A stretch of DNA of 64,000 nt from Escherichia coli (lineage in GTDB: Bacteria > Pseudomonadota > Gammaproteobacteria > Enterobacterales > Enterobacteriaceae): the NCBI RefSeq assembly GCF_003018255.1, contig NZ_CP027440.1; one strand, written 5' to 3'. The notes under the pieces were generated by a model. It saw only the letters and a list, made by a program, of their open reading frames with translations, ran no database searches and was not told the origin of the DNA. The position numbers and the translations under genes are program-made. Below are positions 60,282-60,422 of this stretch, piece by piece (the stretch's first letter is position 1; each line of letters starts with the position of its first letter).

Positions 60282-60422
60282 TATGCTTCAATCTCTGAAC
60301 CACTTAACGCTCGCCGTCAGTAATTTGCAAACTAGCCTGACATTCTGGCGCGATTTACTAGGGCTACATGTGGGAGATTTAGCATCCCGACTGACGCAGT
60401 GCCGGGAGAGGCCTTGCTCTTG
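60282..60422 (+). pseudogene. Internally deleted remnant of a fosA-like (glutathione transferase, fosfomycin resistance family) gene
   Basis: Translates MLQSLNHLTLAVSNLQTSLTFWRDLLGL-HVGDLASRLTQCRERP: a FosA N-terminus joined directly to a FosA C-terminal segment, 46 codons in total. Confidence 0.55.

What the first reader, a model, noticed from the sequence alone, without database searches (positions are those of the whole stretch)
60282..60422. Internally deleted fosA-like gene remnant near the island's right end
The 46-codon ORF joins a FosA-type N-terminus (MLQSLNHLTLAVS...TFW) directly to a FosA C-terminal segment (HVG.LA.RL..CRE.P), as if the central ~90 codons were deleted in frame. fosA is chromosomal in Klebsiella, Enterobacter and Serratia but not in E. 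coli, so this hints at the island's donor lineage and at a lost resistance determinant.
Basis: partly seen in the sequence, partly recalled or inferred. Interest (0 to 1): 0.4.

Follow-up and report, generated by a model that had tools for sequence, protein, structure and literature searches.

The report
Dead fosA7 fosfomycin-resistance gene remnant
This is a real but non-functional leftover of a FosA7-type fosfomycin-resistance gene, missing its middle 86 codons, that sits at the far end of a mobile element inserted at the leuX tRNA gene; it is an ordinary pseudogene that arrived already broken.

Summary
Window 60283-60423 (one base off the reported coordinates) is a 46-codon ORF. It joins codons 1-28 of a FosA7-family gene directly to codons 115-132. 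An in-frame 258-bp deletion removed 86 codons (aa 29-114). It lies in a 6-nt microhomology inside an 11/13 imperfect direct repeat. A later GGA>TGA nonsense change cut off the last 8 codons.

The closest intact relatives are not the native fosA genes of Klebsiella, Enterobacter or Serratia. They are FosA7-family alleles, including fosA7.5, which is chromosomal at this same locus in about 40 of 5,426 complete E. coli genomes.

The remnant is the last gene of a roughly 60-kb leuX-integrated conjugative element. It lies between a restriction-modification/Vsr defence cassette and a copy of the leuX 3' end (60562-60588).

The same junction, with the same cassette, occurs on hundreds of E. coli, Salmonella and Enterobacter contigs. 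A Klebsiella oxytoca element keeps the cassette next to an intact gene. The deletion therefore most likely predates arrival in this genome.

Two of the three Mn ligands, the K+ loop and most substrate contacts are gone, so no resistance is expected. Interest is low.

The parts
60283..60423 (+). 46-codon ORF plus TGA: the internally deleted, prematurely stopped FosA7-family pseudogene
   Evidence: The exact 46-aa product (P0014) is on 319 public contigs.
60272..60366 (+). 5' fragment: 11 bp of ribosome-binding region plus codons 1-28 (keeps His7 and Thr9)
   Evidence: Homology to fosA7.5 and FosA7 loci starts at 60272. The fragment is 91.7% identical to fosA7.5 and to the Salmonella P0055 allele, 94% to the K. 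oxytoca allele, and 100% to the L003 allele.
60363..60368 (+). Deletion junction: the 6-nt microhomology GCTACA (GCTGCA in other copies) within an 11/13 imperfect direct repeat
   Evidence: Intact alleles carry GCTGGGG(C/T)TGCAG at codons 26-30 and GCTGGAGCTGCAT at codons 112-116, 258 bp apart.
60367..60447 (+). 3' fragment: codons 115-140 plus the native TAA stop. It contains Y131C (TGC 60415-60417) and the nonsense codon TGA 60421-60423
   Evidence: Alignments. It is 95.1% identical to the Salmonella P0055 allele and 91.4% to fosA7.5.
60448..60561 (+). Conserved 114-bp spacer between the fosA7 stop codon and the att repeat. It contains a TTGGGGGC motif at 60496 that also occurs three times just upstream of the integrase gene
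   Evidence: Conserved in all FosA7 and deleted-allele loci examined. Motif found.
60562..60588 (+). attR-like direct repeat of the leuX 3' end: CGAGTCCGGCCTTCG, then a 6-nt insertion, then GCACCA
   Evidence: Exact 15-mer match to 654-668, with 0.01 expected by chance. The same 15-mer follows the fosA7 or deleted-allele gene in E. coli, Enterobacter, Atlantibacter and deleted-allele Salmonella loci; the intact Salmonella locus L034 has it with one mismatch.
590..674 (+). tRNA-Leu(CAA) leuX, the left attachment site of the island
   Evidence: ARAGORN, Rfam, RefSeq annotation.
57271..60100 (.). NmeDI-like restriction endonuclease (57271-58344, minus strand), Dcm-type cytosine methyltransferase (58280-59419, minus strand) and Vsr endonuclease (59645-60100, plus strand). 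This is the right half of the AT-rich defence cassette always linked to the deleted allele
   Evidence: It is 91.8% identical to the K. oxytoca cassette that precedes an intact fosA7-family gene.
53211..57209 (+). Left half of the defence cassette: DUF262/GmrSD_N protein, DUF3696 AAA ATPase and a 294-aa hypothetical protein
   Evidence: The cassette has 35% GC against 56% for the ICE backbone.

Best explanation
The ORF is a non-functional pseudogene of the FosA7 family of Mn2+/K+-dependent fosfomycin:glutathione transferases. It is the last gene at the right end of a roughly 60-kb PFGI-1/SPI-7-class conjugative element integrated at leuX, and lies 139 bp inside the element's attR-like repeat.

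Inferred history:
1. In an ancestral element, a REase-Dcm-Vsr cassette sat directly upstream of an intact fosA7-type gene. This arrangement still exists in K. oxytoca.
2. One short-repeat-mediated deletion (slippage or microhomology joining) occurred between GCTGGGGCTGCAG at codons 26-30 and GCTGGAGCTGCAT at codons 112-116. It removed exactly 258 bp. The result is in frame only because the two repeats lie in the same reading frame.
3. The deleted allele then travelled with the cassette and element into Salmonella, Enterobacter and E. coli.
4. In the lineage of this window, the sequence to the right of position 60386 is a different allele, which points to a recombination crossover at 60367-60387. 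A GGA>TGA nonsense change and a Y131C change followed.

The product cannot inactivate fosfomycin. It keeps His7, His115 and Arg122. It lacks His67 and Glu113 (two of the three Mn ligands), Tyr65, Lys93, Ser97 and Tyr103 (substrate contacts), and the K+ loop residues Asn95-Ser101.

Shown: the anatomy, the homology, the deletion size and junction, the distribution, and the linkage to the cassette. Inferred: the deletion mechanism, a single origin, the recombination event, and the lack of activity.
For: - Family assignment: the FosA7 HMM is the best hit, in two stretches. The 54-aa sister alleles score 89-90 bits on the same model.
- Deletion size and frame.
- Repeats at the breakpoints in five intact alleles.
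- Lost catalytic residues: FosA7.5 aligns without gaps over residues 1-136 with FosA-Tn2921 (1NPB) and FosA-KP (5V3D). Residue roles are taken from PMC10779102.
- Position in the element: leuX at 590-674, the leuX 3' repeat at 60562-60576, and ICE genes in between.
- Same junction elsewhere: the 46-aa allele is on 319 contigs, always in this E. coli context. The 54-aa allele P0001 is on 116 contigs. The 54-aa allele P0002 is on 20 contigs, in Enterobacter and Salmonella flanks. All have the same GmrSD..Vsr cassette upstream.
- Pre-deletion architecture: K. oxytoca L039/L040 have the cassette at 91.8% identity, a homologous intergenic region (85%), and an intact 140-aa gene.
- Mosaic structure: window versus L027 shows about 0 mismatches from 52,500 to 60,386, but 7-12% divergence to the right.
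- Window and L003 share two derived synonymous A's, at 60360 and 60366, beside the junction.
- No promoter-like site lies between vsr and the ATG on the + strand.
Against: - No intact allele identical to the 5' fragment was found; the best is 94-96%. The direct parent is therefore unsampled.
- The three deleted alleles have 3' fragments that differ by 12-15%. A single origin needs at least two later recombination events close to the junction. Recurrent deletion at the same microhomology cannot be fully excluded.
- Loss of activity and lack of expression are inferred, not measured.
- The ORF stays open (54 aa) in two of the three alleles.
Confidence: 0.85

Rival explanations
1. Local loss: the deletion happened in this E. 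coli lineage from a resident, functional fosA7.5, so this genome lost a resistance determinant.
For: fosA7.5 occupies the same position relative to the att repeat, HNH, nanS and nanM in about 40 complete E. coli genomes. The window's 3' fragment and downstream flank are 91-94% identical to that locus.
Against: The identical junction with the same upstream cassette occurs in Salmonella and Enterobacter. The 5' fragment is only 91.7% identical to fosA7.5. The sequence upstream of position -12 is unrelated to the fosA7.5 locus, but is homologous to the K. oxytoca cassette-linked gene.
Confidence: 0.05
2. One reading: the remnant derives from the native chromosomal fosA of Klebsiella, Enterobacter or Serratia, and so marks one of them as the island's donor.
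For: - The intact cassette-linked gene is in K. oxytoca.
- FosA7-family alleles are named from K. variicola, K. michiganensis and K. oxytoca, and an 88%-identical protein from Serratia marcescens.
- The deleted allele is recorded from Enterobacter hormaechei.
Against: - Native Lelliottia/Enterobacter fosA genes are 73-77% (5') and 57-64% (3') identical at DNA level, and 70-80% at protein level.
- The FosA/FosA2, FosA5 and FosA3/4 models score lower than FosA7.
- In Enterobacter, the native FosA/FosA2 gene coexists 4.7 kb from the remnant.
- In every host, the FosA7-type gene is island cargo beside the leuX repeat.
- The K. oxytoca copy is only about 92% identical.
Confidence: 0.1
3. Recurrent event: the same 258-bp deletion arose independently in three different fosA7 alleles, because the 11/13 repeat favours this one junction.
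For: The 3' fragments of the three deleted alleles differ by 12-15%, and each is as close or closer to some intact allele. The junction lies in the best short repeat of the gene.
Against: All three share the same upstream cassette and 5' fragment, at 97.6-100% identity. The window and P0001 alleles share two derived synonymous changes flanking the junction. The elements are visibly mosaic elsewhere, so recombination is sufficient to explain the pattern.
Confidence: 0.08
4. Functional small ORF: the in-frame product (46 or 54 aa) is kept because it does something, for example as a small protein or as part of the element's att arm.
For: - The reading frame is preserved.
- A 54-aa ORF is intact in two alleles found on about 136 contigs.
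- 3' ends of fosA7 are retained in independently 5'-truncated copies in Citrobacter and Atlantibacter. This would fit a constraint on att-proximal DNA.
Against: - The commonest allele (319 contigs) has a premature stop.
- Amino-acid changes are frequent in the 3' fragment.
- No promoter-like site lies upstream, and there is no Rfam hit.
- The peptide keeps only the first strand and helix plus the C-terminal tail of a fold that needs two beta-alpha-beta-beta-beta modules. This last point rests on established knowledge of VOC enzymes.
Confidence: 0.03

Closest known systems
FosA7.5 (WP_000941933.1), the chromosomal fosfomycin glutathione transferase of E. coli
   Same: It sits at the same chromosomal position: 114 bp upstream of the leuX-3' repeat, followed by the HNH endonuclease, nanS, nanM, nanC and fimB (PMC9431306). 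DNA identity is 92.5% over the 5' homology region (91.7% over codons 1-28) and 91.4% for the 3' fragment. 27 of 28 N-terminal residues are identical.
   Different: FosA7.5 is intact (140 aa) and reported to confer MIC >=512 ug/mL (PMC9431306). Its upstream DNA is unrelated (ISL3/IS3 context). The remnant lacks aa 29-114 and ends 8 codons early.
FosA7-family allele of Salmonella enterica (P0055, WP_183053146.1) and FosA7 of S. Heidelberg (P0050)
   Same: P0055 is identical to the remnant at all 28 N-terminal residues and at 16 of the 18 C-terminal residues; the exceptions are Y131C and the stop. The 3' fragment is 95.1% identical at DNA level. It is also the last gene before a leuX-like repeat.
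   Different: It is intact. It lies downstream of an Eco57I-like/helicase/UvrD defence island rather than the REase-Dcm-Vsr cassette. The 5' fragment is only 91.7% identical.
FosA7-family gene of Klebsiella oxytoca (P0056, WP_142478782.1), in loci L039/L040
   Same: It has the same upstream neighbours (NmeDI-like REase, Dcm methyltransferase, Vsr) at 91.8% DNA identity, continuous from window 57021 into codon 28. The intergenic region is homologous. It has the best 5' fragment match found, 94-96%.
   Different: The gene is intact (140 aa). The GmrSD/DUF3696 half of the cassette is only about 65% identical. The host flank differs.
FosA-Tn2921 (PDB 1NPB) and FosA-KP (PDB 5V3D), structurally characterised FosA enzymes
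   Same: They align without gaps with the FosA7 family over residues 1-136, so residue roles can be transferred.
   Different: They belong to different subfamilies. The remnant keeps only H7, H115 and R122 of the listed functional residues.

Membership tests
FosA7 family (NCBIfam NF032892) | The best-scoring Fos model is FosA7, ahead of other FosA subfamilies | tested here: met
   71.5 bits for FosA7, against 55.4 (FosA), 54.8 (FosA8), 51.7 (FosA/FosA2), 42.5 (FosA3/4) and 36 (FosA5).
FosA7 family (NCBIfam NF032892) | Full-length match at or above the curated cut-off of 305 bits | tested here: not met
   71.5 bits in two stretches covering only the two ends of the profile. The intact allele P0055 scores 323 bits. 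The ORF is a remnant of a member, not an intact member.
FosA7 family (NCBIfam NF032892) | Genomic setting shared by family members: last gene before a leuX-3'-end repeat at the right end of an island | tested here: met
   The same 114-bp spacer and att repeat occur in fosA7.5 E. coli, Salmonella, K. oxytoca, K. variicola, Atlantibacter and the deleted-allele loci.
Functional FosA (Mn2+/K+-dependent fosfomycin:glutathione transferase) | Mn2+ ligand triad His7, His67, Glu113 | tested here: not met
   Only His7 is retained. His67 and Glu113 lie in the deleted aa 29-114.
Functional FosA (Mn2+/K+-dependent fosfomycin:glutathione transferase) | K+ loop (Asn95, Ser97, Glu98, Gly99, Ser101, His115) and fosfomycin contacts (Tyr65, Lys93, Ser97, Tyr103, Arg122) | tested here: not met
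   Only His115 and Arg122 remain.
Functional FosA (Mn2+/K+-dependent fosfomycin:glutathione transferase) | Confers fosfomycin resistance | not testable with these tools
   This needs MIC testing of the cloned ORF or of the strain.
PFGI-1 / SPI-7 / pKLC102-class integrative conjugative element (the carrier) | tRNA-gene integration with a direct repeat of the tRNA 3' end at the far end | tested here: met
   leuX is at 590-674 and the 15-nt exact repeat at 60562-60576. The repeat carries a 6-nt insertion before GCACCA.
PFGI-1 / SPI-7 / pKLC102-class integrative conjugative element (the carrier) | Class-specific conjugation and maintenance genes (MobH relaxase, TraD, TraG, PilL2, the TIGR037xx ICE proteins, STY4528/STY4534-type proteins) | tested here: met
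   RefSeq/PGAP names for the 99.96%-identical JNE23-011 region. These were not re-derived independently here.
PFGI-1 / SPI-7 / pKLC102-class integrative conjugative element (the carrier) | Intact integrase, and therefore the capacity to excise | tested here: not met
   The integrase at 897-2144 is annotated as incomplete (C-terminus missing), and topoisomerase III has an internal stop. Excision itself cannot be tested with these tools.

The most novel reading that the evidence does not exclude
The fosA7 fragments may not be inert debris. They may serve as the conserved right-hand homology handle of leuX-targeting elements.

- Defence cassettes appear to be swapped between element variants by homologous recombination anchored in the roughly 100-bp block of identity at the deleted-gene junction. 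The near-identical 7.9-kb block shared by the window and the P0001-type element ends within 20 bp of the junction.
- The fosA7 3' end plus the 114-bp spacer may be retained in every copy, including the independently 5'-truncated ones, because it overlaps the element's att arm. The spacer carries a TTGGGGGC motif that is also repeated next to the integrase gene.
Probability: 0.15. Interest if true: 0.35.

Novelty: already known. Interest (0 to 1): 0.15.

Why it matters
- Annotation: resistance-gene screens and annotators should not count this locus as fosA. PGAP currently labels only its first 84 bp as a partial 'VOC family protein'. It predicts no fosfomycin resistance.
- Epidemiology: FosA7-family genes are cargo at the right end of leuX-integrating islands in E. 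coli, Salmonella, Klebsiella, Citrobacter and Atlantibacter. My two literature searches found no paper that mentions fosA7 together with leuX.
- Decay: the gene is lost repeatedly there, by internal deletion, 5' truncation, and the truncated or out-of-frame FosA7-like products seen in the database. This may be useful background for anyone tracking how fosA7.5 moves, but it is not surprising biology.

Tried and rejected
- Species-representative genomes: the scan found no intact FosA7 gene. It found only native Lelliottia/Enterobacter/Kosakonia fosA (70-80% aa) and two truncated FosA7-like copies, so no donor species could be named.
- Protein search with the 46-aa query: it returned only short fragments. 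The intact family had to be reached through a second search and cluster listing.
- Alternative deletion register: I considered a junction between the two Leu-His pairs (L30H31 and L114H115). I rejected it because the product would then read LLGLQLHVG, not the observed LLGLHVG.
- Promoter scan: the number of sites was no higher than in shuffles, and no + strand site lies between vsr and the ATG. There is no evidence of expression.
- Rfam over the whole window: only the tRNA was found.
- Plasmid collection: one plasmid carries intact fosA7.5, and none carries the deleted allele.
- Integrase arm-type repeats shared between the two island ends: only 9-mers were shared (4 observed against 0.65 expected). 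This is suggestive but weak.
- Selection test on the remnant: not attempted, because 26-28 codons per fragment are too few.
- Milner et al. 2020 (PMC7927824) could not be read. Statements about it come second-hand from PMC10352792 and PMC9431306.
- A first identity check of the window against JNE23-011 gave 32,427 mismatches. This was an offset artefact of two indels. BLAST gives 99.96% identity.

Full report
**What is at the coordinates.** The + strand carries an ATG at 60283 and a TGA at 60421-60423, which gives 46 codons. The finder's 60282-60422 is one base off. The product is MLQSLNHLTLAVSNLQTSLTFWRDLLGL followed by HVGDLASRLTQCRERPCS. Against NCBIfam, the best of 34 Fos models is FosA7 (E=7.3e-20, 71.5 bits). 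The match falls in two separate stretches, the first covering profile positions 1-29. Pfam sees only the N-terminal Glyoxalase/VOC piece. The resemblance is not a matter of a few residues.

**Size and nature of the lesion.** I compared the window with the intact fosA7.5 gene of E. coli 2013C-4974 (L001 6013-6435).
- Window 60272-60363 matches the first 93 bp of the locus at 92.5%.
- Window 60363-61327 matches from codon 114/115 onward at 94.3%.
- Exactly 258 bp, or 86 codons (aa 29-114), are absent.
- The frame is kept, and the native TAA is still in frame at 60445-60447.
- The ORF nevertheless stops 8 codons early, because GGA (Gly133) has become TGA. Tyr131 has become Cys.

The drop from 140 to 46 codons is therefore 86 codons deleted plus 8 lost to a nonsense mutation.

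**How the deletion probably arose.** In five intact alleles, codons 26-30 read GCTGGGG(C/T)TGCAG and codons 112-116 read GCTGGAGCTGCAT (GCTGGAGTTGCAT in the K. oxytoca allele and GCTGGAACTGCAT in the Salmonella FosA7 allele). If the left repeat was as in K. oxytoca (CTG for Leu28), the two 13-mers match at 11 of 13 positions. The product GCTGGGGCTGCAT then places the crossover inside the 6-nt microhomology GCTGCA. This corresponds to window 60363-60368, which now reads GCTACA. The repeats are 258 bp apart and in the same frame, which explains the in-frame result. This is the usual signature of slippage or short-homology deletion. The mechanism is inferred, not shown. A second possible register, between the Leu-His pairs, was rejected because it predicts a different product.

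**Why it cannot work.** FosA7.5 aligns without gaps over residues 1-136 with FosA-Tn2921 (1NPB) and FosA-KP (5V3D). In FosA-KP, residue roles are as follows (PMC10779102):

| Role | Residues |
|---|---|
| Mn2+ ligands | His7, His67, Glu113 |
| Fosfomycin contacts | Tyr65, His67, Lys93, Ser97, Tyr103, Glu113, Arg122 |
| K+ loop | Asn95, Ser97, Glu98, Gly99, Ser101, His115 |

Deleting aa 29-114 leaves only His7, His115 and Arg122. No sigma-70-like site lies on the + strand between vsr and the ATG, and Rfam finds nothing there. Loss of function is a strong inference, but it was not measured.

**Where it sits.** The window is 99.96% identical to E. coli JNE23-011. The RefSeq annotation of that strain gives this order:
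- leuX tRNA-Leu(CAA) at 590-674, then a C-terminally truncated integrase;
- a PFGI-1/SPI-7-class conjugative element (MobH, TraG, TraD, PilL2 and the TIGR037xx proteins), with a fimbrial operon and several toxin-antitoxin pairs;
- an AT-rich defence cassette (35% GC, against 56% for the backbone) encoding DUF262/GmrSD_N, a DUF3696 ATPase, a 294-aa protein, an NmeDI-like endonuclease, a Dcm-type methyltransferase and Vsr;
- the remnant.

An exact 15-nt copy of the leuX 3' end lies 139 bp after the remnant's TGA (60562-60576, 0.01 expected by chance). It continues to 60588 with a 6-nt insertion. To the right come a fragment of a phosphorothioate-DNA-binding endonuclease, an HNH endonuclease, nanS and nanM. 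The remnant is therefore the last gene inside the island.

Among 5,426 complete E. coli genomes:
- 3 carry the deleted junction: JNE23-011, JNE112863, and one pig isolate with a sister allele;
- about 40 carry an intact FosA7-family gene, mostly annotated FosA7.5, at the same place.

The literature agrees. FosA7.5 is chromosomal in E. coli and is followed by the HNH endonuclease, sialate O-acetylesterase, NanM and NanC (PMC9431306). Other FosA7 alleles are chromosomal in Salmonella and Citrobacter freundii (PMC10352792, PMC10376468). So 'fosA is not in E. coli' does not hold for this subfamily.

Native fosA genes of Lelliottia, Enterobacter and Huaxiibacter are far more distant: 73-77% and 57-64% DNA identity to the two fragments. 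In the Enterobacter contigs that carry the same deleted allele, a separate, intact FosA/FosA2-type gene (327 bits) lies 4.7 kb further on.

**The deletion did not happen here.**
- The exact 46-aa product is recorded on 319 contigs, all with the same E. coli context.
- Two 54-aa sister products have the same junction but an uninterrupted C-terminus. P0001 is on 116 E. coli contigs. P0002 is on 20 contigs and is named from Enterobacter hormaechei.
- P0002 loci have two kinds of right flank. One is Enterobacter-like. The other is identical to the flank of intact Salmonella fosA7 loci.
- In every case the same GmrSD..Vsr cassette lies upstream.
- In K. oxytoca (L039/L040), the REase-Dcm-Vsr half of the cassette, the intergenic region and the first 28 codons are collinear with window 57021-60368 at 91.8%. 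The gene continues intact to 140 aa. The 180 bp upstream are 85% identical there, against about 55% (unrelated) for other intact alleles.

This is the pre-deletion arrangement. The deletion therefore occurred in a cassette-linked gene on a mobile element and was inherited by this E. coli.

**A mosaic boundary at the junction.** Window versus the P0001-type element shows almost no mismatches from about 52,500 to 60,386. Divergence is 2-8% to the left and 7-12% to the right. The two share two derived synonymous A's, at 60360 and 60366, beside the junction. They therefore share the junction by descent, and a crossover lies between 60367 and 60387.

The window's 3' fragment is closest to a Salmonella allele (P0055, 95.1%). 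At protein level it is identical to P0055 apart from Y131C and the stop. I read this as ordinary recombination between element variants. The crossover would fall in the longest run of perfect identity available on that side. Recurrent deletion at the same repeat is a minor alternative. The coincidence is noted but not explained further.

**Other decayed copies.**
- Citrobacter sp. NCU1 has a copy that begins at about codon 35.
- Atlantibacter subterranea has one that begins at about codon 89, next to what looks like an IS200-type transposase start.
- Both keep the 3' end, the spacer and the att repeat.
- The protein database holds many truncated or out-of-frame FosA7-like products, some of them partial calls.

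Decay of this cargo gene appears to be common.

**Verdict.** This is a pseudogene of a known resistance family on a known kind of element. Interest is low.

Noticed in passing
window 590-60588: The whole island is a roughly 60-kb PFGI-1/SPI-7-class conjugative element at leuX that looks immobilised. The integrase (897-2144) lacks its C-terminus, topoisomerase III (45885-47690) has an internal stop, and the attR-like repeat carries a 6-nt insertion.
   Followed up: partly
window 53211-60100: An AT-rich (35% GC) defence cassette: DUF262/GmrSD_N, DUF3696 AAA ATPase, a 294-aa protein, an NmeDI-like REase, a Dcm methyltransferase and Vsr. It is nearly identical in a differently diverged E. coli element (L027) and is also found behind ThyX/dCTP-deaminase genes in Enterobacter contigs (L019). 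It therefore appears to move between elements as a block.
   Followed up: partly
window 843-897 and 60496: The motif TTGGGGGC occurs twice directly and once inverted just upstream of the integrase gene, and once in the spacer between the fosA7 stop and the att repeat. These could be integrase or excisionase arm-type sites. 4 shared 9-mers were found against 0.65 expected.
   Followed up: partly
window 6586-7239 and 61354-62004: There are two HNH endonuclease genes, one inside the element and one outside its right end. They share a 58-nt stretch at 78% identity (repeat family D5).
   Followed up: no
window 15443-22202: A complete chaperone-usher fimbrial operon preceded by its own tyrosine-type DNA invertase is carried as element cargo. 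The two tip/adhesin-like genes (20232-21236 and 21255-22202) are diverged tandem paralogues (97-nt repeat at 79%).
   Followed up: no
window 2772-4533 and 39225-39744: An AbiEi/AbiEii type IV toxin-antitoxin pair lies next to the truncated integrase, and a RelE/ParE-CopG pair lies inside the conjugation region.
   Followed up: no
L019 14881-15306 (also L021, L022, L024, L026); L039 7513-7947: In Enterobacter contigs, the native intact FosA/FosA2 gene lies only about 4.7 kb beyond the same leuX-type att repeat. In K. oxytoca, a second 144-aa glyoxalase-family gene lies 1.1 kb beyond the island-borne fosA7. Native fosA genes and this integration site are thus neighbours in some genera, which could bear on how FosA7 first became island cargo.
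   Followed up: partly
L003 6472 onward; L027/L028 10290-13170: In the P0001-type E. coli, the deleted allele is followed by only 10 nt of the att repeat, then a second island (DUF6088/AbiEii, integrase). After that comes a 75-77% similar second copy of window 60459-60749 with the full att 15-mer. This is a tandem island array at leuX.
   Followed up: partly
L015 5995-6443; L018 6003-6296: Independently 5'-truncated FosA7-family remnants occur in Citrobacter sp. NCU1 (from about codon 35) and Atlantibacter subterranea (from about codon 89, abutting an IS200-like transposase start). Both keep the spacer and the att repeat.
   Followed up: partly
window 62012-63019: nanS is annotated in RefSeq as an incomplete sialate O-acetylesterase (62426-62992). 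However, an uninterrupted 335-codon ORF with a TTG start spans the region, and gene callers on sister contigs report a 326-aa SASA-domain protein. Its pseudogene status is unclear.
   Followed up: no
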